Shown: one piece after another, positions 71 to 20,240 of the stretch
Position numbering within the stretch: the first letter of the stretch is position 1
Layout: each line of letters starts with the position of its first letter
NCBI GenBank assembly: GCA_963843795.1
Contig: CAWJLW010000011.1
Coordinates: forward strand, 1-21,869
DNA from: an uncultured bacterium
GTDB lineage: Bacteria; Armatimonadota; Abditibacteriia; Abditibacteriales; Abditibacteriaceae
Direction of reading: 5' to 3'
Length of the DNA: 21,869 nucleotides
Notes under the pieces: generated by a model
Databases searched by the model: none
Told to the model about the DNA's origin: nothing
Seen by the model: the letters and a program-made list of their open reading frames with translations, nothing else
Translations under genes and position numbers: made by a program

Positions 71-859
71 TTAGGATTCTTGCGTTCGAATGATGTCCAG
101 TGTGACAAGAGACTGCAGATGATTTTCGAGACGTCTGGCGGGAGTTCCATGTAGCAAAACGCCAATTTCAATGTTGAGATGAAAGGCGTTATCGGTAAGA
201 TTGGCGCTCGAAACCAAACCGATTTGGCCATCGGCGACGGAGCATTTGGCGTGCAAGACGCCAAATTTAGTCCCATCCATATGACGCTTTTCGCGCGGCC
301 AATAATAAACGCGTGAATTGACGGAGAGCTGGCGAAAAGCCTCCGCAGCATCAAATGATAGCTTGCCTTCGCTGTCGGCACTCGTCTCGACAACAAAATT
401 CAAAGCCACCCCCCGCGCCGCTGCGCGCTGCAGAGCTTGCACCAGCGAATCGACGCGATAGGCGGCGAACGTAACGATCCATAATGTTCTTTGAGCGCTG
501 TTGATAATCTGCAAAAGCGCGGCTTCGGTTTGACGCCAATCCGAGCGATCGACTTGCGGTCCCGACCACACCAATTCCGCTTGTGGATAGCGATTGCGCA
601 AGACCTCGCTTTGCATCGCGACCTGTAATGCGAAGCTCAACGATTGCGCATTCAGCTCGTGATGTGAGGCGACGGCTTTTTGCCAAGCATCAAAACATCG
701 CAAAAGTTCAATTCGCGTAGACGGAAATGCTGCTCAGATCCGCCCATTCTTCGCGCCGCAAAATGCTCCACTCGCCAAACCACGATACAATGGCTCCAGC
801 AGCGAATCAGGAATATTGCGCACTAAAAGCGCCACGATCTGAGCTAGTTCTTGGTTCAT
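71..859 (-). CDS. drmC: DISARM phospholipase D-family nuclease DrmC (in-frame TGA at 734-736)
   Basis: ORF 71..703 has the HKD motif (LHAKCSVAD), SSANLT...NIEIG and ELVWSGP. An in-frame ATG at 859 (MNQELAQIVALLVRNIP...) gives about 262 codons if one TGA at 734-736 is read through. It is the last gene after drmB. Confidence 0.88.
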
Positions 860-945
860 GAACCGAATCAAAGAAAATTTCGAAAGGACAAGCTAAAGGA
901 GTGCTGCAAAAGCGTTACAGAAATACTTTGCTGCTTTCATTTACA

Positions 946-2906
946 TCAACTGAAAAATCTCAAGTCGGCGTCATGAAAAGTTTCGACTAGGGTTTTGCGG
1001 TCAAGAAATTTGTTGCCGCGTTCACAGGAAGTTTCGGGAGAAAACAGGCAGCCATGACATGCCGAGCCGTGTAGAGAAGTATCGTCAGCACCGGGACCAT
1101 GCTCCGAGCACAAAGGGTCCCCGGCACAAATTTCGATTTCTTCGAGAGCACATTGCAAGCGATAACCCAACTTTTCGGGGTCACCCAGCGAGACTAATCC
1201 GCCTAATGTGCCTTCGGAATCGGGCGCGGCGGTATAAATTAGAATTCCCGCCATCGGCCCATTATCTTCGTCGGGATCACGACAATACAAGCGCTCGCGC
1301 AAGGAGGAACTGCTGTAGCCACATTCCAAACACAAGGCGCGCATCAAGGCATGCGAAATCGAGTGCAGCAGCACATAGCGAGCGTGTACGCTTTCAGCAA
1401 CCATTGAAGGAACTTCCAAATGACGATCGGCACGCCAACGACGATTAGCCTGTTGCCATTCGCGGTCGTATTCTCGCACGTGCGATTGTTCGCACCAAGT
1501 GGCGACACGCTTTTCGTTCAATTGCAGAAAAATTCCCTCACCTCGCACTTCGACGGCTGGCACCCATGCGCAATCGGCACGAGAAAGGCGCCCGCGTTTC
1601 TCGCGGGAATATCTTCGACCTCACCCCAATCGCGTGGCGATTCAATGCGCGTAAAACCCAATAACGCATGCACTTCACGCAAGCGTTCCGCTAACACTAC
1701 GCGCTCAAAAAAATGTTCGTAACCTTTGGGCGAGTGCGACTTCACGCAGACGAAAATCTTTGCTTTCTCGCTGCGGGTCAGGATTAGAAAAGACATTCCA
1801 TTCCGGTGTTTTCAAATCTAGTTCTTCCCGCTTCTCTTCATCGCCCGCATTGCGTTTGGCTTCGATGGCCGCCCAAATCGATGGCGCATCAAAAGCCGCT
1901 AAAGTGTTGAGCTGACCGATGCTTTGCATTAATTCGACATTTTGCGCGTTTTGCAATTTGTCCAGCAGTGTCCAATTCTCTTCGACTAATTGTCCCAGTC
2001 GGTCGATTTGCGTGGGAATCGATAAGGCCGAAAGCGTAACCGGAAACCACGAGTTACTGGCGCCCAAAAGCATGGTTTTGACTTTGGCTTGACAGTCGGA
2101 AGCGAACTGGCGCAAATGCGGCTCTCGTCCGCGACACCGGCAGACGAAACCAGCTTTGCCCCCGGCTCGCCGAAATCTTTCTCAAAAGCTTGCGACATCG
2201 GTTTTTTCGCGTCGCAGTTGTCGCAAATCACTAGCACTGAGGAAGCGTCACCACCGGCGCCATTTTCCGTCATCTTTAAACGCGGCTGTGGACACGGTTG
2301 GCCCCCGTGCACGAAAGCGATCCAAGGAAAATCATCCAGATGACCATTTTCGCAAGCCAGCACAAAGCGCGATGGTAGGACAGCAGGCGCGCTATATTTA
2401 TGAACGTTGCAATGCGTGTGCACGTAGCGTGCTTTATCGGGACGAAAAGCATCGGTCTTCAAGTCGAATTGCCCTGAATCGACACGTCCCAAGAGTTCGC
2501 ATTTGGGACAGCGCATCCAGCGCGGAAAAGTCGCTACGGGAACGCCCGGCTCGCTACCGCCATCAGCTGCTGCTGTGTCATCAGGACGCGGTGGCGGTGC
2601 AATCAAACGTGTGACGTGCGAACCCATGATGGCCGGTTGCTTGACAGCCAACAGCAAGCGGTCTTCGGTGATCTCTAAGCCATTCATGTAATGCAAGGGC
2701 CAATCTTCCAAACCCATAATCATTACTGTCAGATGCGGCAAATCCACACTCGCACCGACACCGAACGAAAACATCAATTGCGAAGGCCGCATCTCGCCCA
2801 CACGATACCGATCCATTGTTTTTTTCATAGTTGAATTTGTGACCGAAAGCCCGCAAGGACTTATAGCACTGCAAGTACTTGCAGTGCCAATTACATTACG
2901 GCTCAT
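946..2906 (-). CDS. drmB: DISARM DUF1998-domain protein DrmB (about 3 frameshifts)
   Basis: Pieces 1986..2918, 1705..2115, 1518..1796 and 946..1563 join into one protein. N-terminus RPSQLMFSFGVGA; motifs CPKC, RFVLACENGHLDDFPW, GASNSWFP, EVRGEGIF; C-terminal DUF1998 pattern HSISHALM...SEGTLGGL...C..DPLC...ACHGC...ETSCERGN.FLDR. The start could be 2906 (overlapping the drmA end), 2828 or 2816. Confidence 0.92.
2866..2887. repeat. Perfect 22-bp palindrome
   Basis: GCACTGCAAGTACTTGCAGTGC at the drmA/drmB junction. Confidence 0.95.
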
Positions 2907-5900
2907 CGTCCATTCCACCTTCTTGCAGCATCAAAGAGCACATCGCTTCGACATCGCGGAGCGAATTCAAGCAAGTGAAATCCTGCCACGAGCCGCCATC
3001 GGGCTTCTCGAGCAAACCCGATAAGTTGTTGCCGGATTTGTAAGCCAGGGGAACGCCGCTTTGGCTTTGCTTGACGATGCGCGCTTGCCAACTATCGACG
3101 CGCGCTTTGAGTGCAGTTTCGACGTTATCGCGCACTTGTTTCAATTCTTCAACATCACCCGCTCTTTGCGCGATGGTTTGCACGGCGTTTTGCACGGCGG
3201 TTTCCAGCGGCTGCATGGTGCTCGCTGTTTCGTTGGCGTTGAGATTTTCGTTTTCAAGGCGCAACAGAGCAACCAATAAAGCCGATAAACCACGATCCAG
3301 AGCGCGCGGTGCAAAAGGCGTAACCGATAAGGCTTCGACATGCTGATAGAACGTTGCATGGTACTGCTCGAAGGTTTCGTAATGGTTTAGGTCGCGTGGT
3401 CTGGCCCAGTTGAACACCGTGCAAACTACACCCGGCTTTTGGCGTCCAACGCGCGAAGTGGCTTGAATGTATTCGCTGGTCGATTTGGGCTGGCCGCCCA
3501 CGATCATCAGACCCAGACGCGGCACGTCCACACCGACCGAAATCATATTGGTCGCCAGGCAGACATCTAATGGCACCACGGTTTTGGCACGACGCTTTGC
3601 CTTTGCGTCGGCTTTGCGCTCCTGCTCGGACTGCGGGTCGAAAACCGCGTTGAGTTTGTCGAGCATGACGGGAATATCCGTGGCGCTTTTACGCGAAGTT
3701 AATTCTTCGACTTGCTTGATTTCGCGTCGGCTTAAACCGCGCCTTTCCACTCGCTTGAGGCGCGAAGTCACATCGTCGTCGATCAAGCGACGCATGCCAC
3801 CCAATTCGCGCATCGAACTGAAATAGCCGATTGTCGTGAGATACGGATCGGCGGCTTTGCCATATTTCGTATACAAAGTTTGGGCGGCGCCCATATACGC
3901 CACGTAAACCCGAATCAAAGCTGACTTCAAACGCTTGCCCGGAGCACAAACTCCGACGTAGAGACGTGAAGGCGTGGCATCGGTAGAATCGGCGCGACGC
4001 GAAAAAAAGTTGTCGCGAGAATCCAAGCCAGGCGGCGGGAAAATTTCGACTTCACGCAAGAACAAGGCTTTCATCTGGCGCCGCGCGTTGCGCACGGTGG
4101 CAGTTGAAGCGATCACTTTGGGGCGCACGGTTTTCCCATTCACTTGCCACGAACACAAGCGATCAACGGCGGTTTCATACAAACCGACCAGCGTGCCCAG
4201 CGGCCCGGAAATCAGATGCAATTCGTCTTGAATAATCAAATCCGGTGGGCGTAGTGGGCCGTGACTTGTGCTGCGCGTTGCAGGCAAAAAACCTTTGGCG
4301 GGATGCGTCGGCGTATCTTGGACTTCGGGACTGAGAAAACCGTGACGCGGGCAATGGCCATTGACTTTCCCGAATAGCATGCCCGTCAATCCATTCCACG
4401 GCATCTGGGCAAATTTATCGACGGTCGCGATCACTAGGGCGGGCAAGCGGCGATAAATTTCTTCGTCCACGACCATCGCTGGCACGCCTTCGCCGGGCGA
4501 ATTTTTGCGATTGAAAGCGCAGTTGTGCTGAAAATCGGGACAGTAAAGCAAGGTGCGCGCGCGGTCAGTATCGACCACGACATCGCGCCCGGCATCAATA
4601 GCCGCACCGCACCACGGGCAGTTGGTAAATTGCAGGGGCGTCGCTACGCCCGCTGAAAAAGCGTTATTTTTCAGATTCTTGATCGCTTCACTGGCGTCCA
4701 GAGTTTTGTTGGGAGTGGTCTTGGCTCCTACCCATAAACCCAGTCGAAACGGCTCATCGCCCCATAAACGCGGATTGGCGCGTCGCTCGATTTCACAAGC
4801 GCAAATCAAACTGGCCGCGCGCTGAAACTGCTGCAAAGTCAACAAGCGCAAGGTGTAGCGCATCAAGACCGCCACGCCATGCATTCCATCGTAGCCCGCA
4901 ACTGTCCCTTGCAAGCGACGGATCGCCAGAGTGAAAGCTGTCAGGCCCAGATAAGCTTCGGTTTTGCCACCACCGGTCGGAAACCACAGCAGATCGGCTG
5001 TAGCCTGCACGCTAGCGCTGCGGTCGTGGTGATTTAGATCGGCCAAAGAGGGTAAGTTGAGCAGAATGAAAGCGAGCTGAAACGGACGCCAGAGACGATT
5101 TTTTTCAATATCGAAAGTCGTCAATTGCGCTTTGTCGTCACTGCGCCGCGCTTCGATCCACAGCGAATGCACGCGCTGCGTTGCCATCGTGCGATTTGCA
5201 AAGCGAAACGCTTGCAGCGCGCGTTTATCGCGCGCTAATAAGTCGATGCCTTCGGCGATACGCTTTTGCGCCTGTTCACATTTTTCCAGAGTGCGACGCG
5301 CCGTCGTTTGGTAATGACCCAGCGTCGGATCGCTGCTTATTTCGGCGCGCTGCCGTTCAATCCATTGCGCGTAAGCCTCCATAAGCGGGCGCAATGCGGC
5401 GACGATTTCACTGTCGGGCAAGGTGGCCAAGTCCTGCATGGAAAGGTTTAGACCCGACAATTCGGGAATATCATCGATTCTGGGAGCGTCTTGCCGTTCG
5501 ACTTCCTGTGTGGGGATGGGTGAAGTTTCGATGGCGCGTGCGCGACGCGGGTTTTCCGTATCGCGTTCGGCATGAACTGAAACGTTGTGGCCCACGGCGA
5601 ATTCAACGCAGTGGCGATGCATCATCGCCAGTTGCAAGCGTTCATCCCATCCCACACTGTCCTGTTTCTCGTCGCTGCTATCGAGCGCGATGGGATGGGG
5701 AGCGAAAATCGACGCGCCATCGACACCTTCCACGCGCAAATGCGTTTGAAAGAGCCACGCGGAATCGGCGCTGCTTTCCGGTTCAGTCGCTTTGTTGATG
5801 AGAAACAAAGTCACGACCCAGTGCTCGCCCTGTCCCCAATCGCGTTTGCGGGCGCGTCCTTCGACCCAAACATCGGGCGCATTGGCGGCGTCGGGCTGCC

Positions 5901-6424
5901 ACTCGGGTAAGTCACCTTCTTTAAGTGCAAGTACTTGCGCGCCGTCGCGTGGCGTGCGCTTCCACACCATTTTTGGCGCGCCATCTGATTTCTTGATGGT
6001 AGCGGAAAGTTCGCGACGATATTCACCCCACGAAGCTTTGCCAAGCAGTTGCTCAACGTCCAGAGGCAGCGTGAAGGTGAAGCCGAAGGTGCAGGGAAAC
6101 ATCGAGCGCGCGTCGGTTTCGGGCTGATCGGCTTCGATGGGGCCATCTTCTTTGGTGGTATTGACGCCATTGAAGGCTTCGGCTCCGACTTCGACGTGCC
6201 AGTTTTTGCGATGGCGCGGCGCGAGCATTCCGCACAGATAACGCTCGGAGACGATTTCATCCACTTCTTCTCGTGGGCCACCCGCCGGGCCGATGAGATC
6301 GTTGCGCACCATCTGCTGCAATTCGTCACGAATTTGCAGTGAAGTGGGAGGTGCTAATAGCGCTGTACTGTCAGCGCCGCTGCAGGTACTTTGCAGCGGC
6401 GCTTCGGGAAGAAAGTTCGTTCAT
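2896..6424 (-). CDS. drmA: DISARM SF2 helicase DrmA
   Basis: Uninterrupted 1141-aa ORF 2896..6321 with WRPFQLAF, Walker A LLWFPTGGGKTEAY, MRYTLRLLTLQQFQR, IIQDELHLISGPLG, ASTAT, ATNMISVGVD and EYIQATSRVGR. The likely true ATG is at 6424, since deleting one T at 6390-6392 joins it in frame. Confidence 0.95.
6373..6403. repeat. Palindromic element (12-bp arms) at the 5' end of drmA
   Basis: AGCGCCGCTGCA-GGTACTT-TGCAGCGGCGCT. Confidence 0.9.
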
Positions 6425-6439
6425 AGAATTTAAGATTGT

Positions 6440-7118
6440 TCAATTTGATGCGCGCCACAGCCAATCTTCGCCCACAGAACGCTCGGCGTATTTTAGATAA
6501 TTTTGCAGGGTTTGCTCAACGTTTTCTTGTGCGCTTTGCAAGCCACTTCCAAAGACAGATCTTAAAGTTTGGTCACACGTCTTTTGGTATTACGCATGCA
6601 CAAACTTCTTCAAACCCAACATGAGCGCATAACGCTAATATCGTCGCTTCCAGACAAACGACGCGATTTTCCAAGCTGTCACGCATGGTTTGTACATGAG
6701 GACGGTGTGGCAGTGGTGCATCGATGGCATGGCGACCAAAAGCGTAAATTGAATTTTTGTCGCCCGTGACGAGAAAAGATTCGGGAGTGCGAAAAGCTTC
6801 GGAAAATAGAATCAGTTCGCCACCATCGACGCGGCACGTTTTGCCATCCTCATCTTCGTATTCAGCACCTTCTAAAGCATCGCCGTCAATTTCGTTGGGT
6901 GCTAAGGGCAAGGCTGTAGCGCGCTCGCAAAATTGCAAAGCGCGCGCGATAGAACTTGCGTCATGAAGTTGACGCGTTTTTGCACTGGGCTTGCGCATAC
7001 GATGCGCAGCAGCTTCAAGAACGCAAATTTCCTGACCTTGCAAAATTTCAACAGTAGCATCCAAAAGATTGAACGCCGCCAACTTCAAAATGATGTCGTT
7101 ATCGGTGAATAAAACCAT
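6440..7118 (-). CDS. PIN-like domain protein (putative nuclease/toxin), one frameshift near 6580
   Basis: Starts MVLFTDNDIILKL (acidic residues after the first strand), then VDGGELILF and FLVTGDKNS, an acidic pattern resembling PIN folds. After a frame change at about 6580 it continues CDQTLRSVFGSGLQ...YLKYAERSVGEDWLWRASN to a TGA at 6440-6442. Confidence 0.6.
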
Positions 7119-7134
7119 CGTATACAATCAAATT

Positions 7135-8180
7135 TCAGGCGGCACATTCTGCACTTGTGATGCTGGCAAGGTGGGCCACAAACTCGTAATCGTCGTCACT
7201 TAAAGCCAGCCAATCGGCCTGTTCTGCATAATGTGCATAAAGTTGCAGCGCGTTTTGTTCGGCTTCCACAACTTTTAGTGCATTGACGCAGAGCCAGCTC
7301 TTTTACGGTGATCTTGATGAAACCAATTAAGCAGGATCGCTCCGGGATGAACCCCAATGGTATGTGCATACTCAGTGACTTCTGCTGCCAGAGTCGTGGA
7401 ATCTGGCCAATCGTTCTGGTAATCAAATGATGTATCCGCACTTCCAGTTAACAATTCGACCGCGAAGTCATTGGCCGCACGCTCTTCTTCGTCTTCTTCG
7501 TCTTCAGCACCAGTGTAAGAATCAAAGATTTCGCCACCTTTGCCGATGTGCCCCAAAACATGATGTCCTAACTCGTGCGCCACGATAAATGCTTGCCACG
7601 CCGGAGAATTGCGACTGCAAAAAGTTAAAATGACCGGATCGCCAGCTGGACACAATGCCATGCCATCGAACTTCTTCATGCCTTCGGGCAAGCAGGCGTG
7701 CACGACTGGTAAGCCGCGTTCCCAGCAGAAACCCAGCAGTTCTTCCAAACTAATCCACGATGTGCCGCTTTCCATGATGACCGCGCGAATTTTGCGCGCG
7801 CTCCATTGGCTCCAATCGGTATTTTTCCTTTCTTGCAGGGGCGTGGCTGCACGATGAGCCTCTGTCGTTAATGCTCCCAGGCGCGCGCCCATCGCACGTG
7901 CCAATTTCACTTTGCTCAGATCGGCATTGTTGTGAGTTTTGAAGCGCGCGCGAGGCGCATCATTCAACTTCAGCTCAGCGCTTTGATCTCGCAAAGACGC
8001 CAAATCTAAACCCAACTGGCGCGCGAATAAAATTTCCAATTCGTAGCGCGCCGATGCCGAGCTATCGAGTTCTTCGCTCCACCATTGCGGCCACAATACG
8101 TCTTTGACCCAAGCTTTGGGCAAGCCCAAGCTGTGCAAGCGTCCAGTCAATTGCTTGCGATAGAGATTTTTGTTCGTCAT
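7135..8180 (-). CDS. ImmA/IrrE-family (HEXXH) metallopeptidase-like protein with an N-terminal extension, one frameshift near 7300
   Basis: WQAFIVAHELGHHVLGH...EERAANDFAVELL motif. ORF 7275..8180 continues in another frame (SWLCVNALKVVE...DWLALSDDDYEFVAHL...) to a TGA at 7135-7137, 16 bp before the PIN-like ATG. Confidence 0.8.
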
Positions 8181-8183
8181 GGT

Positions 8184-8732
8184 CTACCTCTCTTGCATGT
8201 CCAACATGCTCAACAAACCCAGCGATAGCAAGCGCACAGTTAAGGCTTGTTCGCTGACTTTAAAGATCGTGCTCAGTTTGCGAATGGCTTTTTCATCATT
8301 CAAATCTAACTGATGCGCGACGGTTAATTTTTCAACTTCCAGACGTGGCATCAGAAGCTCGGCGGCAAAAGCGTTGGCTTCCATTTCCACGTCTAATTCA
8401 CCCGTTTGCGAACGAACATCGCGCCGAAACGAAAGCGCGCCATCGACAAAAGCTGTCGCTTTTTCACCAGCTTTCCAATGCAGTACATAATGCCCTAATT
8501 CGTGCGCGACCGTGAATCTTTGACGCCGTTGAGAATGGCGATTGTTCACCGCGATCACGGCTTGGCCATCCTGGGCGAAAAGCGCGCCCGAAGTTTTCTC
8601 TTCCAACTCCTTCCAAACAATCGACACGCCCATGTGCTGGGCCAACTCTTCGACATCGACGGGAAGTTTTGTCATGCCATAACGCTCGCGGACTTGCTCG
8701 ACTTCCTTTTCAATTTGCGCTCGGCTTTTCAT
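8184..8732 (-). CDS. ImmA/IrrE-family Zn metallopeptidase (CapP/IrrE-like, stand-alone)
   Basis: 182 aa. PVDVEELA, SGAL, RQRFTVAHELGH and EMEANAFAAELLMP are the family's typical motifs. SD-like AAGGGG upstream. Confidence 0.92.
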   Translation of the reverse strand: MKSRAQIEKEVEQVRERYGMTKLPVDVEELAQHMGVSIVWKELEEKTSGALFAQDGQAVIAVNNRHSQRRQRFTVAHELGHYVLHWKAGEKATAFVDGALSFRRDVRSQTGELDVEMEANAFAAELLMPRLEVEKLTVAHQLDLNDEKAIRKLSTIFKVSEQALTVRLLSLGLLSMLDMQER

Positions 8733-8746
8733 TTTGTGTGTCCCCT

Positions 8747-9124
8747 TTATCTGCTCACGCCTTCACCGGCATTTTGGATTTCGCGCAAAGCCTCTGACAG
8801 TTTGGGAGTCAAATTGCGCTCTGCTCCCACGATTTCCATCGCCAACATGCTTTCTTTGGGCATTGCTGAGGGCGCTAACGCTTCGGGCAGAATATCCGTA
8901 ATTGAGAGCTGCAACTCGCTACATAAGAGCACGCATTGCCACAATGATGGCTTTTGGCGTGCCGCTTCGATATGAGCCAGCGTTGTGCGCTCGATGCCCA
9001 AACGCGATGTCACATCGTCTTGTGTCAAAGACAATTCGAGCCGACGCTCGCGGAATCGTCGGCTCACTGCTTCGTAAAAATTCTTCTCGTCTCTTTCATT
9101 ATATCCGTTAATTTCACTCACCAC
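8747..9124 (-). CDS. XRE/Cro-family HTH transcriptional regulator
   Basis: FRERRLELSLTQDDVTSRLGIERTTLAHIEAARQKPSL fits the HTH_3 pattern. GTG start with AGGGA SD. Ends 14 bp upstream of the peptidase gene. Confidence 0.9.
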   Translation of the reverse strand: MVSEINGYNERDEKNFYEAVSRRFRERRLELSLTQDDVTSRLGIERTTLAHIEAARQKPSLWQCVLLCSELQLSITDILPEALAPSAMPKESMLAMEIVGAERNLTPKLSEALREIQNAGEGVSR

Positions 9125-9245
9125 TTTTCCCTATGCTTGGGTTAGTTTTCCACAGTTAGACGCACAAAATAGGGAAAAGATTCGTAATGGTGAATTTTCT
9201 TCACGTTTTGATAAAAAAATTCACAATTATTTTAAATGTGACGAA
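9124..9245. promoter_or_regulatory. AT-rich divergent control region with several inverted repeats (candidate operators and an RBS-occluding stem)
   Basis: CTTTTCCCTAT 9124-9134 / ATAGGGAAAAG 9169-9179; GTGAATTTT 9190-9198 / AAAATTCAC 9216-9224; GTGAA-N5-TTCAC 9190-9204; TCACA-N11-TGTGA 9221-9241. Lies between divergent genes. Confidence 0.6.
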
Positions 9246-9380
9246 ACTTAACAAAATAATGAGCGTTTAAATAGTCAGTTCTCGAACCCAGAGATGAAAA
9301 TTTCCGATTTCGAGAAGCGCTCGTTAAATCTAAAGCCTCGACCGGCGGGCGTTATTAATGAGGCAAAAAGGAAGATTCAG

Positions 9381-9638
9381 ATGAATTTTCAACATTGGCC
9401 AATGAATTTGGCTTCGGGTGGCGGCATTGCGATGACTATCGACACGCAATGCGATGTGTTTTTGGTGGATGACAGCAACTTTGCGTCATTCAAAAGCGGC
9501 AGAGATTTTCGCTATTATGGCGGCAATCAAAAGCTGAAGCAGGTTCGCATTCGGGTTCCGCGCAGTGGGCATTGGCATTTAGTATTGGTGCCGATGCCCG
9601 GAAATACGGTGCGTTATTCTGAACCGATAATATTCTGA
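9381..9638 (+). CDS. DUF1883-like small protein (85 aa)
   Basis: ATG at 9381 follows AAGGAAG. MNFQHW...DVFLVDDSNFASFKSGRDFRYYGG...IRVPRSGHWHLVL matches the DUF1883 pattern as I recall it. Confidence 0.75.
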   Translation: MNFQHWPMNLASGGGIAMTIDTQCDVFLVDDSNFASFKSGRDFRYYGGNQKLKQVRIRVPRSGHWHLVLVPMPGNTVRYSEPIIF

Positions 9639-9649
9639 TCGGTTAGCGC

Positions 9650-9690
9650 AACACAAAAACCTTCGTCCAAATGGACGAAGGTTTTGTGTT
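9650..9690. terminator. Probable bidirectional intrinsic terminator between convergent DUF1883 and drmMI
   Basis: AACACAAAAACCTTCGTCCA-AA-TGGACGAAGGTTTTGTGTT is a near-perfect 19-bp stem with A/T tracts on both sides. Confidence 0.75.
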
Positions 9691-9696
9691 TTAAAG

Positions 9697-9725
9697 AGCG
9701 TGCTGCAAGTAGCTTGCAGCACGCT
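9697..9725. repeat. Palindromic element (13-bp arms) with a GCAAGTA(G)CTTGC core
   Basis: AGCGTGCTGCAAG-TAG-CTTGCAGCACGCT, 10 bp downstream of the reconstructed drmMI stop. Confidence 0.85.
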
Positions 9726-9735
9726 TTTGACGTGA

Positions 9736-12700
9736 TTAAAACAAACCGTTCTGCTCGGGCGCGGTTTTCGTTTTGGTGCGCGTGGCTTTGGCTTTCTTCG
9801 CCCGCGCGACTTTGGTTTTCTTGTCGTGCAAACCGGCTTCGACTTCGTGGGCGAAGCGGCGTGTGATTGAGGGCGAGGAGCAAATCGAGCAATTGGGCGC
9901 GGGCGGCGGGTGCGACGGTGAAGCGGATGCCTTGCGCGGTTTCGTGGAAATCGTGGCCCAGATCGAGATCGTGCCAGCCGTAAGCGTCGCACACGGCGCG
10001 GTCGAGGCGGCGATGCAAATCGCGCAGCGCGGCGATGTCGTCGAAGGGCGGCGCGGCGTTGCGCACGCGGCAGGTACTTGCAGCGGTCTCGGGATCGTGA
10101 AACAGGTTGTAAACCTTGGTCAATCCCAACTCGCGCGCCGCGCAAATCGACGCCCGCTGCGCGAAATACGATTTGCCCAACTCCGCAAGTACTTGCCGCG
10201 CGTTTTCATCCCAATCAGGAAACGGAAACGTCTCAAAACAATCTGCCGGAGCATAAACAGGTCTCGTTTCCAAAGACTTGAATCATGTGTGAAAATCCAT
10301 TCTGCGTGTAGTGTTAAGATAGAACGCTTAAATCACTGAAATTTCGTAGCGAAAACACGACAAGTTTGTGTCCATAAACCCATTCGTTTGGCACAAAAAC
10401 AAACGAGTGGATAAATCTTGCTGGTTTGCGTAACAACCAATACTTGGGATAACGACGTGATTGTTTCGTAAAGTGCAGGACGTTTTTCAGCGTAAATCCA
10501 CCAATTTTGCGGTAAGTTTTCGCAAAACAAATTGCCGTCTGGTTGGTTCGCGTGCGTTCCGGCTTCACTTTCTCCTCAAGTACTTGCAGACAATCGGGAA
10601 AATCGGCGGCCACGAAACCTTCGTAGTCAGGCGGCGCGGTTTCGCGGTTCAAGGGCCAATCCCGAAAATTGATTACCCAGCGCGACGGCGATTGATCGGG
10701 GCGAGAATTCAAATCTTCGCCATTCAAATACGGGAAAAGTACTTGCGTATTCTTCACGTCTTTCTCGATTAACGCTGCGGCTTCGTCGGGCGTTAAAACG
10801 AAACCCATGCCCAGCACAAACGAACCGATAAAACTTTTGCCCGCATTGGCGGCCAAGCGGTGCGGATTGCCGACGACTTCGCCCGGTTCGCTGAGATAGG
10901 GCGTGATGGCGCTCACGGCTTTTTCGGCCAGCGCGCAACTGATTTTCCACTCGCCTTTGACGATGTGAACCAGCGCCACTTCCAAAGCCGCCTGTCCGGG
11001 CCATTTCCGCGAGGGATTGGCGGCGTGAATCAGGCCGTCCCAATTCACGATTTGATCGAGACCGACTTCGCGCGTATCGCCCTGCGCAATCGTGTTGGTG
11101 GCGATTAAACCCAGATGACCGCCTTCGGCCAACAAATCGAAGCCGCGCAGATAAAAATACGCCACCAAATCGGCGCTGCCGCGCTGTCCGCGCGCGATGG
11201 CCTCGACCAGATAATTGCGATACGGCACGCCCAGCGCGCCCGTGATGCGCTGGCCGCCGATGAAAGGCGGATTGCCGATGATGGCATCGAAGCCCACGCG
11301 CTCGCGTTCGCCCTGATGATGGCCCGCTTCGTTGAGGAAAAACACTTCGGGAAATTCCAGCGGCCAATGCAACGGGCGCACGCTGCCCAACATTTCATCC
11401 AATTGGGCGCGCACCTGCTCGCGCACCGCTTCGCCTCGTGGGCCATTGCGCCTGATGAATCAGCGCCCACAAACCGCGCTGCTTCTTCGGTGCGCGCGCT
11501 TGCCGGTCAAACCCGCAAAAGTGGGCGCAACAATCGCATCGGCAAACAAGCGACCGATTTGCGTGGCGTTTTGGGCGCGTTGCAGCGCGGCGCGCGCACT
11601 GCTTTCATCGGCTTCGAGTTCGGGAATTTCGCTGCGCGCTTCCGCCGCGGCTCGCATCCAACTGGTGTAATTCACCTGCGCGATTTGGCGTATCGCTCAA
11701 GCGATTCAAATTCTGCGAGCGCAGTTGCGCCAGATCGACGCCCGCCAGCGAATCACCCACGCGCAGCGCGTGTTCGAGAAACGAAAAAGGCCGCCCTTTT
11801 TCCATGGTGACCAGCCACAGCGACAGTTGCGCCATTTCAATCGCCAGCGGGTCGCTATCGACGCCATACAAACAGCGACTCGCCACCACGCGCCGCGCCT
11901 GCAACAACCGCTCTTCGCGCTCTGCTGCCCAAGCGTTCGGCTCCGCGTTCCAGCGCAGTAGTTTCGCCATAAGGCACGAACAAAGTCGCATCGGGCGCGG
12001 CATGCTGCTCGACGATTTCCCACGCCTGCACCAGCTTTTCCGACAGATAACGGCACACTTGCACCAACACGCCCGCGCTGCCGCACGCCGGATCGCAAAT
12101 CTTCAAATCCAATAGTTCGCGCGGCGTGCGCAAAGTCTCCGGGCTGGCTTCGATGCCTTGCGCAAAGCCGCGATAAACCAGCGGATCGAGCGTGGTGGAG
12201 ACCAGCGGTTGAGTCAAAGTGCGCGGCGTGTAATGCGTGCCCGACGAGCGTCGGTCGCTGCCGCGCGTAACATACAAATTGCCCTCGCCGATGATGACTG
12301 GCAATTTGTAAACATCGCGCCGAATCAGATTGGCGAAAGGCCGTACGCGCGCCAGAATTTCGTTGTCCGGGCACACGCGCTCGAAATGTCGCCAATCGTC
12401 CAACGGCGGCGGCGCATTCAAATCGTTTTCAATCGCGGCTTTGGGAGCGTCCGGTTTGCTGCTCTGCAAGTACTTGCACAAGGCTTTGGGTCGTCGGCGA
12501 GCTCTTCCAGCGCTTGCAGCGCGATTTCCGGCTCTTCGCCGCCCGCTCCTTTCAACGAAAGCACAATGCCATCGGCGCGGCGCACGGTGTGATCGAGCAA
12601 ACCTTCGTAAACGTGACCGATTTGTTCGATATCCAAAGCGCGAAACGAAACCACGCGCGACTGCGCTTCACCGCCGCCGGGCATGCGCACTTCGAGCAGC

Positions 12701-13894
12701 TGCAACGCTTCGAGCAGATAAAGCACGGTGCGATTATCGACCGGCAGCGGCGCGGCGGGCGTTTCGCGCCAGCTGGTGCCCGCCGCGCGTCCTTCGAGAA
12801 AAGGAAATTGATCGGGATCGAACAAACTTCCGCCGTAGGGAATCAGCGGGCAACGGTCGTGCGCGATACCGCCGTAGATGGCGCGAAAAGTCGCCAGCAA
12901 GCGCGGCCACGCATCGAAACGGCGCTCCAACCATTCATCGGTGTGAATATCGGCCTGCTCGCGCAGTTCGGCGCGCAAGGGCGAAACCGCGTAAGAATTG
13001 GCATAAAACTCGTTTTCCAGCGGCAACAAGTCGCGTTCTTCGGCGCACAGCAAAAAGACCAGCCGCATCATCACGCTCAGCGCGGCGCGATAAATTTCAC
13101 GCGTTCCCAAACCAGCAAACAGCGCCCCGCCATGATTCTGATCTTCGCGCTCCCACGTCGCCACCAGAAGCTCCAGCGCGCGCCGCACTTGTCGGCCTAA
13201 TTGGTCGGTGACTTCGTGCTGAAAGTCCACGCTGCGCTCAAATAAGCGCACCAGCGTGTTGTCATCATCGACCGAGAAAAATCGCTGCGCGTCCAACAGC
13301 GAAACAAAGGCGCGCCAAGTCAGCGCCTCTTCGCCCCACAGCGTGGCATTCCAATTGATGTAAGAAGCGGTTTCGCCGTGTGGCGCGTAAATCAGAACCC
13401 AACTTTCGCCATTGGAAAGCAAACCCAGCGGCACGCGCGTAGCGCGCAAGAGTTCGGTCAAGCGAGTTTGTGGCGAAGCATTCCACCCCGAATCTTTGGA
13501 AAGTGCCGTGGGTTTTTGTCCGGCCTCGAGCTGCATCCACAACAGGCGCGGCAGTTGGGTTTGCGGGTCGATCAGCGCGCCATCGGGCCGCAGCGTTTCG
13601 CCATATTGCGGCGAGAAGTTCCAGACCCGTCGGCATTTCTTGACCTTCGCGCCATAAACTTTCTGGCCAGCCCAAACCTTCCTGGCGCACGTAGCGCAGC
13701 CACGCCGAATGTAGCGCGCGTTCAGTGGGGTTCTGGCTCCATTCTTCGCGGGCGAGCCGAATTTGTGAGCGCAGTTGCGGCTCTGCATTGTCCAGCCCTT
13801 GGGGAAACGCATCGAGCAAGATGGGCATGGAAAGAAACGGGCCGGAGATTTCAATGAGCGAAAGCCATTCGGCATGATGGCGGGCGATGGACAT
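9736..13894 (-). CDS. drmMI: DISARM class I N6-adenine DNA methyltransferase DrmMI (multiply frameshifted)
   Basis: N-terminus MSIARHHAEWLSLIEISGPFLS, then LDIEQIGHVYEGLLD, SGTHYTP, SAM-binding ICDPACGS, LYGVD, catalytic IIGNPPF, ATNTIAQGDTREVGL, YAPADCFETFPFP and AYGWHDLDLGHDF. The reconstructed end is ...EQNGLF followed by TAA at 9736-9738. It is spread over at least 7 ORF pieces. Confidence 0.9.
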
Positions 13895-13989
13895 GATAGA
13901 AAAGTCGAGTTTAAATTGTAGGGTTTGTGAATTGCTGGCGACAGAAAGTGTAACCAGATTTTGCCAAAGTTCGCAGAAGAGTTCAAACC

Positions 13990-16900
13990 TTCATGCGCTT
14001 CGCGTTCCGGCACCAGAAACGAAACCGCAGCCGGAAACAAGCGTGGGCTTGGCGAGGCATAGCGAGTTTGAATGAGTTGAGTTTCGCGCTCGATTTCAGC
14101 CGGGGATCGCATCCAAACGCACTTTGAGCGCATCGCGGTTGCGCTGCAACTGCAATTGCTCCTCGTTGCTCCACAATTCCAACTGCTGTGGTTCATCCGC
14201 AAAAATTTCGCGGCGAATGCTGGCCGCCAATTCTTCCAGAACCGCGCGCAGATGTGCGCTTTCAATGCTCCGCACGGTCGTCAGCGAAATTTTCCAGATT
14301 CTTTGTGCGGTCGCGCATTCGATTTTCCAGTGCACTGAGCAAGGGATTTTCGATTTGAGGCCACGATGTCGCGCAGGCGATTTTGCATGAGAGGTGAAAC
14401 TTCGTCGCGCGTTTGGGCTTCGATGGCCGCAGTCACTTCGCCCACATTCAAACGCGAAAAGTCGTCCCGCGCGCAAAGCGCCACCAGCCCGAATCACTTC
14501 TTCATGCAAGCGCGCGTTATCCTGTCCCAAAACCACCAAGCGACCATGCGCGATAACAATAGGCGTATCGAAGCGAGCACCTTTCATAGTGCGCACCGTG
14601 ACGCGGTTGATTTTGGCGCGCCGCGCTGCCACAATTGTGGTTTCGTCCCCGCCATCAATTGTCGAGGTGTTGGCATCGGCCAGCGCCCAGATTTCGGCGC
14701 GCAGCAGACCCAGACTGAGTTGCACCAGCCGATGCCCCAGATGCGCGAACACCACATCATCGCGTCCGCGCGCCGAGGTTTTCATCGAACACAATCGGCG
14801 GCGCTTTTCCATTATGCGGATGGTTGAGACCCAGCGCGGCGCTTGACCACGAACCCGAAAGCGCGGGCAATTCCCACGCGCGCACGCCATCGGGCAACGT
14901 CACGGGAATCAAAGGCGGTTGATGGGCCATTTCGAGCGCGACTTGCACGGCGCGTTCGATGTTTTCCGGTGCATGCTGCAAGTCGTCACGCGTCTGGCGC
15001 AAATCTTCGCTGCAACTGTTCTAATTGCTTTTTAAGTCGCGCTCGAAGCGCAGCATGCGCCGCGCGGGATTGGCTTCGTTTTCGGCGCGTGCGTATCGAG
15101 TTTTCGGCGTTTGCCAATCATCGCTTCTTCGACCTGAGCGGCGATAACCGGCCCGACTTTGCCCAAATCTTCGCGGATCTGCTCGACTTTGCGCGCGGCG
15201 CGCAAGAAGAAATTCCAGATCGCCTTCCAAGTCGCCCGGCGCTTTGTCGCGCGCGTTCTGCTCGCGGAAACCTTCGCCCACAAAGTGAAACACATCGACC
15301 TGGTCGGCGCGCTGTCCGTGTCGGTCGATGCGCCCGTTGCGCTGCTCCAAACGATTGGGATTCCACGGGATTTCGTAATGCACCAACGTGAGACAATAGT
15401 TTTGCAAGTTGACGCCTTCGCTGGCCGCATCGGTCGCGAGCAAAATGCGCACGCTTGATTCCTCGGGATGCGCCTGAAACGCCGCTTTGATGTTTTCGCG
15501 CGTCGTGGCAAATCCATGCCGCCGTAAAGTACTTGCAGCCGCTTTTCCATCCGGCCAATGCCCGCAAGCGGCACTGCCAGCAAGCCGAACAGCCATTTCT
15601 GCGTGGCGCGATATTCGGTGAAGATAATCACCCGTTCCGTCATTCCATTCGCCATCGGTTTTGCAGGTGTCTTTTGCAACCATTGGATGAGCGCGCGCGA
15701 CTTTGGTGTCGCCAACGCTGGCACCGTTGCTCGGCCAGGCTTTGCATTTCGTCCAGCCAACTGCGTTCTTGCGTCAGTCAAGGGCGCGAACCAGCGCGAT
15801 GACTCATCAACGACGATTTCGTTTGCTTCTTCCCACTCTTCATCATCGGCGCTATTTTCTTCGAGATCTTCGATCTGCCGCCGCAGAATTCCGCCATCCA
15901 AAGCCGCGCTGCGCTGGACTTTCGGGCGCGGCTTTTCCATGGTTTCGCGATGTTTGCGCAAGCGTTTGCGCAAACGCTTGCGGCGAGGAAAACAAACGCT
16001 TTTTGAGCAGCTTCAAAACAAAGTCGGTGGCCATCATCGAGGCGCCTTCCCGGGTCTGCTCGTGCCGCGACTGCGCGTAGCGATGCAACAGGGAATGCAG
16101 TCGCTTTTCGTCTTCGCTGTAAGCACTTCAATCGCTTGAAGCTCACGTCGGGAAAGCGCGGTTTGCCATCGAAAGCGGGCGGAAGTTCGCTTTTTAGTCG
16201 GCGCACTAAAACTTGCGCCAACTGTTCGCGGTTGGGTTCCACGCCGCGCGCAAAACGCTGATCGTCCAGCAATTCCAACAAAGCGGAAAACGATTCTTTG
16301 TAGCCGTTGTGCGGCGTGGCCGAAAGAAACAGCTTGTGTTCGAAGTGCGCGCGCGATCTCGCGAATGGTGCGGGTGCGCTGCGAGTCGATGGCATAATGC
16401 GAACTGCCCGAAGGCGCGATGTTGTGCGCTTCATCGACGATAAGCAAGTCCATGTCGACGTGGGAAACGTGGCTCGCCTTCGCCGGGCAAAGTTTCGCGA
16501 AACAGTTGCAGCGGACGCTCGCGTTTGAGGTAATCCATCGAGCAGATCAGGCGCGGAAAGTGCGTCCACGGATTGACATGCAAACCGCGCGAGCGCCGCA
16601 GCAAGCGCATCGCTTCGGCGTCGATGATGCGAAATTCCAGACCAAACTTTTCGCGCATTTCGCTTTGCCATTGAATTTGAATGTCAGCCGGACACACCAC
16701 CAAAATGTCGCGCGTTTTGCCGCGCAGCAAGAGTTCCTGCATCACCAAACCAGCTTCAATGGTTTTGCCCAATCCGACATCATCGGCGATGAGTAGCGAA
16801 ACGCGTGGCATCCTTAACGACCGAGCAACCGGATCGAGCTGATAATCTTGCACTTCGATACCCGAACGAAACGGCGCTTGCAGCGCCGAAATATCTGCCG

Positions 16901-17296
16901 AAGAAATCGCATTCCACTGAACCGACTGCAAAAAGGCATCGAAAACATCGGGCTTATCGAAAGGCCGCTTGTCATCGGCCATTCCAGGAGCGGGCATGGC
17001 GGGCCGCTCCAAAATTTGTGCGCCTGCTTCGCGCTCCCAGATCACTCGAGATGGTTTCGCCCAACCCATCGTCTTCAACCGAAGCTAACTTGACGATGTG
17101 ATGAGGTCCGCGGATCGAGCGCATTAATGGACTCAATGCAGGCGCACCTTCCCACAAAACACTTGGCTCCAATGCCGAGCGCTCTACATCTTGCACGACG
17201 AAACGACGACGGCGTAAATCGACCAGTTGACCAGTCACCGGCACAGAGACAATGGAAGTGGATGTTGAAGAGGTGGACGCGGATAGGAGTGGACAT
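13990..17296 (-). CDS. drmD: DISARM SNF2-like helicase DrmD (heavily frameshifted; ends approximate)
   Basis: Pieces carry GQLVDLRRRRFVV, LQAPFRSGIEVQDYQLDP, Walker A ADDVGLGKTIEAG, DLLIVDEAHN, FLSATPHNG, IIFTEYRATQ, ATDAASEGVNLQ, PWNPNRLEQRNGRIDR and C-terminal RLFPAAVSFLVP. It sits directly upstream of drmMI. Confidence 0.9.
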
Positions 17297-17368
17297 AAGT
17301 GAAGTAAAGAGATGAAATTGCTACTTATAATCTATAACCCCAAAATGACGCACATATTTACAAAACGG

Positions 17369-17397
17369 GGCGTGCTGGAAGTACTCTGCAGCACGCC
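17369..17397. repeat. Degenerate palindromic element (9-bp arms) upstream of drmD
   Basis: GGCGTGCTG-GAAGTACTCTG-CAGCACGCC. Confidence 0.75.
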
Positions 17398-18415: not shown

Positions 18416-18489
18416 GGTATACTGTATTGCAGTATTTCAAGCATTGCTACGATTTGCCAAGCAATACAATCGTAGTCCAAGGACTTTTC

Positions 18490-19086
18490 ATGAAAATCAT
18501 TACCGTGACTGGGTTCAAAGGTGGGGTGGGCAAGAGCACCGCTGCCATTCACCTGGCCACCTTTTTTAGCGAGCAGGGGAAGGCCTTGTTAGTGGATGGA
18601 GATCCCAATCATACATCTCTCGCGTGGGCCAAAGAAGGCAAGCTGCCCTTTGATGTGGTGTCCACCAATCAAGTCGCTCGGGCGGTCAAAGACCGCGACT
18701 GGATCATCTTTGATACTCCAGCGCGGCCCAACAGCGACGATCTTTCCGAACTCGTCAGCGGCTGTGACCTTTTAGTGCTTCCAACTACGCCGGATATCGT
18801 AAGCATCAGGCCAATGATCGCCACGATTCAAGCCCTAGGAGTTGCTCATTACAAAGCCCTGGTCTCCATTGTGCCACCGCGCCCCATGAAAGACGGAGAA
18901 CTCGCACAGAAGGAATTGAAAGAACTGGGCTTTCCAGTTTTTGACACCATGATCCGCCGCTCTGTCGTTTTCACTAAAGCCGCGACAGCCAGCGTCGCAG
19001 TACGCGATTTGGAAGATCCTCGCGCTGGCTTGGCCTGGTCCGATTATTTGGCTCTGGGACAGGAAGTTATGGAAGCGCTAAAGTAA
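18490..19086 (+). CDS. parA: ParA-family Walker-type partition ATPase (short, type Ib-like)
   Basis: MKIITVTGFKGGVGKST deviant Walker A, LLVDGDPN, IIFDTP; 198 aa with no N-terminal HTH. Confidence 0.95.
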   Translation: MKIITVTGFKGGVGKSTAAIHLATFFSEQGKALLVDGDPNHTSLAWAKEGKLPFDVVSTNQVARAVKDRDWIIFDTPARPNSDDLSELVSGCDLLVLPTTPDIVSIRPMIATIQALGVAHYKALVSIVPPRPMKDGELAQKELKELGFPVFDTMIRRSVVFTKAATASVAVRDLEDPRAGLAWSDYLALGQEVMEALK

Positions 19087-19146
19087 AAATTTCGCGAACT
19101 ACTTTGACAGAGCACAAGATCGAAACCATTCCCGAAGGAGACCAAA

Positions 19147-19644: not shown

Positions 19645-19931
19645 ATTTAAAGGGTAGAGTAGCCTTGGACAGAAATTTCCTGTCGGAGCCGGATAGGTCT
19701 CCAGCGCTCACAAAGGCTCATCACCCTGTTCTGCAAGGACTTGCCAAGGCCCGAAATTGTGCATGGATGAAAGCAGTTTTGATAACTGACGAGATGTGCA
19801 CTTTGATCTGCGCAAGTGCTACCTTTGGGTTGCCACCAAATTAATAAAATCTACGTGAGTGCTCAAACGTTGATTGCTCGCTTCAGCGAGTCAAATCACT
19901 TCAAGATCACACCCAAAACCGCTCTGTCCTT

Positions 19932-20240
19932 GGACCACTTTGGGGAGACGATAGGCTACGCAAGCGGTCAAAAATACATGCATTTTTGACAAATGGAGCA
20001 GACAACACCGATTTTTTCCAATTTCGAGGCAGATCTGCGATTCCCTATGATGCCCGACTCATGCTGACGACTCGCTTTTCGCTTGCTTTACCGTACCTAT
20101 TAGTCCTTTCAAATGTTTAGGACTGTTTGGGGAGACGATCGTGAAATTAGTTAGGACTGTTTGGGGAGACGATTGGACCACTTTGGGGAGACGCGAAGGA
20201 CTGTTTGGGGAGACGATTAGGACCACTTTGGGGAGACGAT
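19932..20240 (+). repeat. Iteron array / probable replication origin (6 copies)
   Basis: Core TTTGGGGAGACG(AT) preceded by GGACTG or GGACCAC. Copies start at 19932, 20120, 20154, 20175, 20198 and 20220, just upstream of the rep-like gene. Confidence 0.88.

What the first reader, a model, noticed from the sequence alone, without database searches (positions are those of the whole stretch)
2866..17397. Highly iterated palindrome GCAAGTACTTGC across the DISARM region
Seen: I count exact AAGTACTT at 2873, 5929, 10187, 10578, 10737, 12468 and 15527, four of them as the full 12-mer GCAAGTACTTGC (2871, 5927, 10185, 12466). Near-copies occur at 6382, 9705, 10070 and 17379. By base composition alone an AT-rich 8-mer is expected well under once in 22 kb. 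In genes it mostly reads Q-V-L via CAA GTA CTT. I saw no copies in the par/ori/rep part or inside the inserted cassette genes. Known analogies: cyanobacterial HIP1 and DNA uptake sequences. Inference: a lineage-specific iterated palindrome, possibly tied to a methyltransferase (the core is AGTACT), DNA uptake or a nucleoid protein. It would mark the drm genes as long adapted to the host, and the cassette and backbone as different in origin.
Basis: partly seen in the sequence, partly recalled or inferred. Interest (0 to 1): 0.75.

Follow-up and report, generated by a model that had tools for sequence, protein, structure and literature searches.

The report
Genome-wide DNA signature word with dialects
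This bacterium has written one 12-letter DNA palindrome into its genome about 2,570 times, in genes and in most predicted terminators, and related species use different words in the same way, so it likely acts as a "self" tag like the DNA-uptake sequences of Neisseria and Haemophilus, although nothing that reads it has been identified.

Summary
GCAAGTACTTGC occurs 2,567 times in this 4.3-Mb Abditibacteriaceae genome (0.65 expected), and the window is poorer in it than the chromosome. 70% of copies are intergenic, and the AGTACT core sits in 720 of 987 terminator-like hairpins. The 769 coding copies arose by substitution (4.7 expected after codon shuffling), reshape proteins and fill the gaps between intergenic copies. 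11 of 27 family genomes carry such a word at 6-12 per 10 kb. The words follow clades: palindromes around AGTACT, a directional AGTACGGTCGA, and unrelated directional CAGCCACG and ACAAAAAATG, several in inverted pairs. None of 137 other phylum genomes shows AGTACT excess. An orphan methyltransferase tracks GTAC avoidance and likely methylates the core. Best reading (0.45): a DNA-uptake or recombination self-tag accumulated by molecular drive. Rivals: a site for an intracellular DNA-binding protein (0.25) or a HIP1-type methylation ratchet (0.2). No receptor was found. This scan noted the AGTACT dialects before in another genome (e1-5297255). The non-palindromic dialects, terminator capture, gap filling and methyltransferase link were not in the lines of that note shown to me. 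My literature searches returned no description.

The parts
2866..2887 (.). Exact 12-mer (2871-2882) at the centre of a 22-bp perfect palindrome between drmA and drmB; terminator-like hairpin class
   Evidence: RNA fold of 2860-2895: -14.2 kcal/mol
5927..5938 (.). Exact 12-mer inside drmA, Q-V-L frame
6374..6401 (.). Degenerate copy (3 mismatches) at the centre of a hairpin just upstream of drmA
9693..9729 (.). Copy with a 1-base insertion at the centre of a bidirectional terminator-like hairpin after the DUF1883 gene
10070..10081 (.). 1-mismatch copy in the 3' part of the drmMI region
10185..10196 (.). Exact 12-mer, Q-V-L frame, 3' piece of the drmMI region
10576..10587 (.). 1-mismatch copy (10-mer exact) in drmMI, Q-V-L frame
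10735..10746 (.). 2-mismatch copy (8-mer exact) in drmMI, Q-V-L frame
12466..12477 (.). Exact 12-mer in drmMI near a frameshift (K-Y-L or A-S-T-C frame)
15525..15536 (.). 2-mismatch copy (8-mer exact) in drmD, Q-V-L frame
17368..17397 (.). AGTACT core with an indel at the centre of a hairpin upstream of drmD
71..6321 (-). Context only: drmA (2896-6321), drmB (in pieces, 946-2918), drmC (71-703)
   Evidence: PADLOC
9614..17244 (-). Context only: drmD and drmMI, both in frameshifted pieces
6573..9638 (.). Context only: inserted cassette (HTH, two IrrE/M78 peptidases, an unknown ORF, DUF1883) with no exact copy
18427..21579 (+). Context only: ParA-type ATPase, an unknown ORF and a putative replication ORF (no Pfam hit), with no exact copy

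Best explanation
The palindrome is this lineage's version of a word kept about once per 1-2 kb across the genome, and it likely works as a self tag that the DNA-uptake or recombination machinery prefers, so that tagged fragments would replace untagged ones (molecular drive). Shown: the word is genome-wide, arises by base substitution, is kept at orthologous sites, piles up where it costs little (spacers, terminator stems, variable codons), fills gaps between existing copies, is scarce in foreign islands and on most small contigs, and comes in clade-specific dialects, some of them directional and in inverted pairs. Inferred: the cell is naturally transformable (its type IV pilus, ComEA, ComEC and DprA genes are present); a sequence-specific reader exists and its specificity drifts or is swapped between lineages; an orphan methyltransferase methylates the GTAC core, which may sharpen self-recognition as reported for HIP1. 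Terminator hairpins would be a by-product: a palindromic tag fits at the top of any stem. DISARM is only a long-resident passenger.
For: Copy number and null models: 2,567 exact copies against 0.65 (order-3 Markov); 769 coding copies against a mean of 4.7 (max 13) in 10 synonymous-codon shuffles; QVLA 585 against 38 and ASTC 132 against 4. Location: 1,786 of 2,567 are intergenic although about 14% of the chromosome is; 720 of 987 terminator-like intergenic hairpins hold AGTACT. About half of Neisseriaceae/Pasteurellaceae uptake sequences lie in predicted terminators (10.1101/2025.10.24.684340, passages). Origin and conservation: no fixed 12-base insertion in orthologue alignments; AGTACT kept at 28 of 66 orthologous coding sites in metagenome relatives at about 63% protein identity, first of 30 palindromic hexamers (median 0.04), and at 0 of 12 and 0 of 13 rows (two of them duplicates) in motif-less G002 and G017. 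Gap filling: coding copies lie a median 1,045 nt from the nearest intergenic copy against 660 (max 745) in 200 randomisations; spacer occupancy rises from 0.35 to 0.80 with distance to neighbouring spacers. Dialects: 11 of 27 family genomes, all at 6-12 per 10 kb in the samples; directional ones sit on both strands (1,561/1,530 in G007; 1,569/1,604 in G006; 1,350/1,246 in G034), with 36 of 54 G006 copies and 20 of 43 G016 copies in close inverted pairs; two dialect groups fall in starred RecA clades. Machinery: ComEC in 30 of 31 class genomes, ComEA 5 of 5, DprA 5 of 5, pilus ATPases 5 of 5.
Against: No receptor was found: the pilus operon has the same gene set in 4 motif-bearing and 3 motif-less genomes, and competence genes are present in both groups. 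Competence has not been shown for any of these organisms. Known uptake sequences are not palindromes (PMC1939737, passages) and Neisseriaceae dialects share one core (PMC3630211), whereas CAGCCACG, ACAAAAAATG and AGTACT share none. In G000 both arms are kept (2,567 of 3,241 AGTACT are full 12-mers), which suits a dimeric intracellular binder equally well. Saturation near one per kb is also predicted by Elhai's mismatch-repair ratchet (PMC4390886 section 3.4). No motif was detected in 16 of 27 family genomes, but this rests on 14-100 kb samples, so weak motifs could be missed.
Confidence: 0.45

Rival explanations
1. The word is the site of an abundant intracellular DNA-binding protein (nucleoid organiser, supercoil or termination helper, repair loader) that needs a site every 1-2 kb, preferably at gene ends. 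Dialects follow changes in that protein.
For: Strict palindrome with both arms kept in G000. Even spacing, CV 0.745 against 0.81-0.87 with coding copies randomised. About one copy per spacer, peaking 10-40 nt after stop codons. A chromosome-structure role has been proposed for HIP1 (PMC5861425, passages).
Against: No motif was detected in 16 of 27 close relatives, so an essential architecture role is unlikely. The ten strongest spectral peaks are all under 1.3 kb, with no 10-90 kb period as reported for HIP1. G007 and G018 copies are mostly coding (10% and 16% intergenic), so gene ends are not required. No candidate protein was identified.
Confidence: 0.25
2. A HIP1-type ratchet: the orphan methyltransferase marks GTAC, and a methyl-directed repair or recombination step favours the strand carrying the extended site. 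Copies accumulate to about one per kb with no role of their own.
For: One orphan beta-class N6/N4 methyltransferase in G000, found in 21 of 26 other family genomes and 0 of 4 other class genomes, with no conserved neighbour gene. GTAC is the best of 160 palindromic patterns at separating 15 enzyme-bearing from 8 enzyme-lacking genomes (median log2 o/e -4.2 against -0.5, P=0.0008, kin not independent). All 7 AGTAC-type genomes have the enzyme. MutS and MutL are present. The model predicts saturation at about 1 per kb.
Against: Four genomes carry words without GTAC, and G016 lacks the enzyme by this query. Most enzyme-bearing genomes purge GTAC (o/e 0.01-0.14 in 12 of 15) instead of iterating it. 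No MutH in G000, G009 or G007 and no C5 methyltransferase in G000, which Elhai's G-meC model needs. A neutral ratchet does not easily explain fixed amino-acid changes kept across 63% identity. The enzyme's target is inferred, not measured.
Confidence: 0.2
3. A REP/NTS-type repeat spread by a transposase or cut by an Ssn nuclease.
For: Mostly intergenic; 565 of 620 perfect palindromes of 24 bp or more are centred on it.
Against: No clusters (at most 5 per 1.5 kb). Stems differ from site to site. Coding copies arise by substitution. G000 has one weak Y1 transposase hit (E 4e-7), and its 2 GIY-YIG hits lie in frames of 450 and 672 aa, too long for Ssn.
Confidence: 0.05
4. An artefact of sequencing, assembly or codon usage.
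For: The assembly has many frameshifts.
Against: The same dialect occurs at 9-10 per 10 kb in unrelated metagenome contigs of different GC. Sites are conserved in frame at orthologous codons, one orthologous terminator keeps the central 12 bases (and nearly all of the 16-mer) while its stem changes on both sides, and codon shuffling removes the signal.
Confidence: 0.01

Closest known systems
[quoted passage not shown]
   Same: Thousands of copies at about 1 per 1-2 kb; clade-specific dialects; intergenic excess; inverted pairs in terminators; frame bias and use of permissive codons; no orientation bias; scarce in foreign DNA.
   Different: The G000 word is a perfect palindrome that forms the top of the hairpin, not its two arms. 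The dialects include unrelated words with no common core. No ComP/ComN-type receptor was identified. Different phylum; uptake untested.
HIP1 (GCGATCGC) and alternative HIPs of cyanobacteria (PMC4390886; PMC5861425; PMC13756078; 10.1101/2024.09.10.611283)
   Same: Palindrome spread by substitution; about 1 per kb; lineage-specific extensions and replacements; a 4-base core that matches a (here inferred) orphan adenine/N4 methyltransferase target; conserved in genes across reading frames. HIP1 raises transformation when methylated.
   Different: Different sequence and phylum; 12-16 bp; 70% intergenic with most predicted terminators taken over; sister dialects are not palindromic; no C5 methyltransferase in G000; no long-range period seen.
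REP/BIME elements with RAYT (recalled) and NTS/SRM repeats with Ssn nucleases (PMC11893778)
   Same: Extragenic hairpin-forming repeats near gene ends.
   Different: Not clustered, no constant body beyond about 16 bp, 30% in frame inside genes, no matching transposase or small GIY-YIG nuclease found in G000.

Membership tests
DUS/USS uptake sequences | One 9-12 bp word in about 1,000-3,500 copies per chromosome, far above Markov and codon nulls | tested here: met
   2,567 against 0.65; 769 against 4.7 in genes
DUS/USS uptake sequences | Intergenic excess and use in terminator stems | tested here: met
   1,786 of 2,567 intergenic; 720 of 987 hairpins; inverted pairs in G006 and G016
DUS/USS uptake sequences | Dialects that follow phylogeny | tested here: met
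   RecA tree of 21 genomes
DUS/USS uptake sequences | Non-palindromic word with a core shared by all dialects | tested here: not met
   The G000 word is palindromic; CAGCCACG and ACAAAAAATG share no core with AGTACT. Directional words do occur in 5 relatives.
DUS/USS uptake sequences | Competence machinery present | tested here: met
   ComEC, ComEA, DprA, pilus ATPases, PilC, PilD, pilins; also present in motif-less relatives
DUS/USS uptake sequences | Sequence-specific pilin receptor (ComP/ComN type) | tested here: inconclusive
   Same pilin gene set in 7 genomes with and without a motif; other pilin-like genes not compared
DUS/USS uptake sequences | Word-dependent DNA uptake or transformation | not testable with these tools
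   Needs an experiment
HIP1 and alternative HIPs | Palindrome at 300-2,700 per Mb spread by substitution | tested here: met
   597 per Mb; alignments; range from PMC4390886
HIP1 and alternative HIPs | Sequence GCGATCGC or a described variant, in cyanobacteria | tested here: not met
   Different word; host is Abditibacteriaceae by named homologues
HIP1 and alternative HIPs | Methyltransferase whose target lies inside the palindrome | tested here: inconclusive
   Orphan enzyme tracks GTAC avoidance; target not measured; no C5 enzyme
HIP1 and alternative HIPs | Chromosome-scale periodicity of 10-90 kb | tested here: not met
   Ten strongest peaks all under 1.3 kb in a simple spectrum; the method differs from PMC5861425
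REP/RAYT or NTS/Ssn repeats | Clustered extragenic repeats with a constant body and a linked Y1 transposase or small GIY-YIG nuclease | tested here: not met
Chi/KOPS-type polar motifs (recalled) | Orientation tied to the replichore or to transcription | tested here: not met
   A palindrome has no orientation; directional G007 copies are 22 sense and 22 antisense in genes, with both orientations within single 20-kb stretches

The most novel reading that the evidence does not exclude
Abditibacteriaceae are a third bacterial family with sequence-selective DNA uptake, and their reader switches between wholly unrelated words (palindromic AGTACT types, AGTACGGTCGA, CAGCCACG, ACAAAAAATG). Each switch rewrites about 3,000 sites, most terminators and hundreds of proteins. 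In the AGTACT lineages the tag is also methylated by a family-wide orphan enzyme, which would join the cyanobacterial HIP1 phenomenon and the Neisseria uptake-sequence phenomenon into one mechanism.
Probability: 0.3. Interest if true: 0.9.

Novelty: new variant of a known kind. Interest (0 to 1): 0.72.

Why it matters
The papers I read describe sequence-selective uptake for two proteobacterial families only, and HIP1's function has been open for 30 years. Here one small family holds both palindromic (HIP-like) and directional (DUS-like) words, plus sister genomes with none. In practice, the word marks native versus foreign DNA and mis-binned contigs, predicts terminators, and may be what is needed to transform these little-studied bacteria.

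Tried and rejected
Link to DISARM: rejected; the window has 1.8 copies per 10 kb against 6.3 on the chromosome. Viral scan gave 6 loci with one 12-mer each, read as chance. Sequencing runs: one DNA run with a 0.06 share and no RNA holder listed; its contigs covered 12 of 30 bins, and the listed pieces did not span a motif site, so no conclusion. GAATTC and GTWWAC (targets recalled for the nearest solved enzymes) did not separate enzyme-bearing from enzyme-lacking genomes. No restriction partner was seen next to the methyltransferase; the shared neighbours were an AbiJ-type gene (4 genomes) and rho (3 genomes). The pilus operon did not separate motif-bearing from motif-less genomes (7 of 29 genomes with the operon compared). 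Apparent repeats in G002 (a tandem 21-mer) and G012 (CRISPR-like array) were set aside as local. A first RecA tree kept only 10 of 29 loci through a faulty filter and was redone with 21 (G001, G031-G038 and the 8 phylum-level loci not included). Genome-wide GTAC counts for relatives were not obtained; those values rest on 14-115 kb samples. Gene calls are my own simple caller, so coding/intergenic counts are approximate. Literature searches for the words and the taxon (listings only) returned no description; most subscription journals are not in that library.


Full report
OBSERVATION. The window is contig C11 of genome G000 (4.3 Mb, 11 contigs). It carries a class-1 DISARM locus (drmD, drmMI, drmA, drmB, drmC; PADLOC), several genes in frameshifted pieces, an inserted cassette and a ParA-type backbone. 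The four near-copies are real, and three of them are hairpin centres. Cassette and backbone have no exact 8-mer against 5.4 expected (P=0.004 together; 0.11 and 0.04 apart).

IT IS GENOME-WIDE. G000 has 2,567 exact 12-mers (order-3 expectation 0.65), and 2,567 of its 3,241 AGTACT sites are full 12-mers. Density per 10 kb is 6.3 on the 3.6-Mb chromosome, 5.6 on C10, 0.7-5.0 on the other contigs and 1.8 in the window. The preference extends to CTGCAAGTACTTGCAG (879 copies). Two gaps of about 26 kb hold many genes with low codon scores, and one ends near a tRNA, which I read as foreign islands. The nearest named homologues of a chromosomal protein are from Abditibacterium utsteinense (77%) and an Abditibacteriaceae bacterium.

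ANATOMY. With my own gene calls (3,486 genes; chromosome 86% coding), 1,786 copies are intergenic, 769 coding and 12 on an edge. Copies do not cluster (at most 5 per 1.5 kb) and most occupied spacers hold one. 565 of 620 perfect palindromes of 24 bp or more are centred on the word. Many read A-run, GC stem, word, stem, T-run, and they peak 20-40 nt after a stop codon; 720 of 987 terminator-like intergenic hairpins contain AGTACT. Coding copies use three frames (513 Q-V-L, 142, 114) and are not a codon effect: 769 against a mean of 4.7 (max 13) in 10 synonymous shuffles. QVLA occurs 585 times against 38 expected, ASTC 132 against 4, and its reverse CTSA twice.

ORIGIN AND UPKEEP. In orthologue alignments the word appears by substitution, often with amino-acid change, with no fixed 12-base insertion. 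A metagenome scan with a 20-mer gave 117 stretches (80 with long flanks) from several unrelated assemblies, GC 0.50-0.70, median protein identity to G000 63%. The two largest groups carry CAAGTACTTG at 9-10 per 10 kb (the loci were chosen by one copy each). AGTACT is kept at 28 of 66 orthologous coding sites and the 12-mer at 11 of 45; AGTACT ranks first of 30 palindromic hexamers (median 0.04). With same-genus G001, 6 of 19 cores and 0 of 14 full 12-mers are kept, several carrying G001's own flanks. Motif-less G002 and G017 keep 0 of 12 and 0 of 13 rows (two duplicates). One orthologous terminator keeps the word while its stem changes on both sides. This excludes an artefact. Spacing is more even than gene layout explains: coding copies lie a median 1,045 nt from the nearest intergenic copy against 660 (max 745) in 200 randomisations; gap CV is 0.745 against 0.81-0.87; spacer occupancy rises from 0.35 to 0.80 with distance to neighbouring spacers. 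So a copy gains value by being far from another copy, which points to a DNA-level signal acting per 1-2 kb (inference). The ten strongest spectral peaks were all under 1.3 kb.

DIALECTS. The exact 12-mer has 0-3 copies in each of 30 relatives. AGTACT has 2,813-4,733 copies in 6 of 31 class genomes (G000, G001, G009, G012, G015, G038) and 1-285 in the other 21 family genomes. Samples of 14-115 kb gave CAAAGTACTTTG in G001, TCGAGTACTCGA in G009, G015 and G038, and GAGTACTC in G012. Three directional words were then counted genome-wide. GTACGGTCG: 3,173 in G006 against 10-15 in 4 others. CAGCCACG: 3,091, 3,503 and 2,676 in G007, G016 and G018 against at most 761 in 28 others. ACAAAAAATG: 2,596 in G034 against at most 39 in 26 others. 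All occur at 6-12 per 10 kb, with intergenic share from 0.10 to 0.85; 36 of 54 G006 copies and 20 of 43 G016 copies lie in close inverted pairs. In a RecA tree of 21 genomes the three CAGCCACG genomes form a starred clade, as do the two TCGAGTACTCGA genomes. None of 137 sampled genomes outside the family shows AGTACT excess (highest 1,099 in 4.9 Mb, below its control). In all, 11 of 27 family genomes have a word; the other 16 showed none in samples only.

CANDIDATE PROTEINS. G000 has one match to the beta-class N6/N4 methyltransferase family (C6:2517365-2518135), closest in the PDB to M.RsrI (E 1.6e-36). It is found in 21 of 26 other family genomes and 0 of 4 other class genomes, with no conserved neighbour. 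Of 160 palindromic patterns, GTAC best separates 15 enzyme-bearing genomes without an AGTAC word from 8 lacking the enzyme (median log2 o/e -4.2 against -0.5; P=0.0008; G016 is an exception; kin are not independent). I infer that GTAC is its target. In the 7 AGTAC-word genomes, GTAC outside the word is only mildly low (0.45-0.77), while 12 of the 15 others are at 0.01-0.14; this split is unexplained. MutS and MutL are present in 5 of 5 genomes tested; MutH was not found in G000, G009, G007 or G005, and no C5 methyltransferase in G000. ComEC (30 of 31), ComEA (5 of 5), DprA (5 of 5), pilus ATPases (5 of 5) and PilD (29 of 31) are present whether or not there is a word, and the pilin operon has the same gene set in 4 motif-bearing and 3 motif-less genomes. 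G000 has no Ssn-sized GIY-YIG gene and one weak Y1 hit.

MECHANISM. I commit to an uptake/recombination self tag spread by molecular drive (0.45), because copy number, terminator use, permissive coding sites, even spacing, unoriented directional dialects and inverted pairs together match what is described for DUS/USS. Against it: no receptor, no shown competence, palindromy, and dialects without a shared core. An intracellular binding site (0.25) explains palindromy and spacing but not the patchy distribution among close relatives. A methylation ratchet (0.2) explains the GTAC core and the density but not the GTAC-free words. Insertion repeats (0.05) and artefact (0.01) fail direct tests.

LITERATURE SEEN. 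PMC4390886: passages and the first part of section 3.4. PMC13756078: first sixth of the text. PMC5861425, PMC3630211, 10.1101/2025.10.24.684340, PMC11893778, PMC1939737: passages. 10.1101/2024.09.10.611283: abstract and outline. No supplements were read; tables of over-represented words in them could bear on novelty. Searches for the words with bacterial-genome terms (1 unrelated hit) and for the taxon (listings only) showed no description. REP/RAYT, Chi/KOPS and the targets of the nearest solved enzymes are recalled.

VERDICT. A real, family-restricted, genome-scale signal of a known kind (HIP/DUS-like iterated word) in a new phylum, with an unusual mix of palindromic and directional dialects. 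It is not a member of HIP1 or of the DUS/USS families by sequence, it is unrelated to DISARM, and its function is untested. Interest 0.72.

Noticed in passing
window 71-17244 (-): Class-1 DISARM locus on a 22-kb contig with a ParA-type gene; drmD, drmMI and drmB are in frameshifted pieces. Chromosomal mutS and pilus genes are also split, so assembly indels are the likelier cause.
   Followed up: partly
window 6573-9638: Cassette between drmMI and drmA: CapH-like HTH, two IrrE/M78 peptidases (one strongly CapP-like, E 4e-38), an ORF with no Pfam or PADLOC hit, and DUF1883. Possibly a damage-responsive regulator inserted in DISARM.
   Followed up: partly
family genomes G005, G007, G008, G011, G013, G014, G016, G018, G032-G036: GTAC is almost purged (o/e 0.01-0.14 in samples; AGTACT 1-33 per genome). 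Families f11 and f34 of the phylum also have very few AGTACT (0-45).
   Followed up: partly
G032:C98 (L212); G034:C179 and C210: Single contigs dense in AGTACT inside genomes that otherwise avoid it; probably mis-binned or recently acquired from a motif-bearing relative.
   Followed up: no
G000, all contigs: 41 genes with a pilin-like N-terminus, most of one paralogous type (DUF1559-like in the one scanned); not compared across genomes, and one could be a DNA receptor.
   Followed up: no
L226 (G010): Motif-less G010 has a ComEA match in a 62-aa frame and a 558-aa ComEC frame; G014 ComEC is split; G009 has two ComEA genes.
   Followed up: no
L069:8251-8500 (G002); L085 (G012): A 21-nt tandem array in G002 and a CRISPR-like repeat (about 45 copies) in G012.
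   Followed up: no
methyltransferase tree: G034's orphan methyltransferase groups with those of G000 and G001 (85/86 support) rather than with its own genus, hinting at transfer.
   Followed up: no
G000:C6, intergenic copies without a long hairpin: 282 copies are centred only 10-20 nt after a stop codon, a sharper peak than near start codons; unexplained.
   Followed up: no
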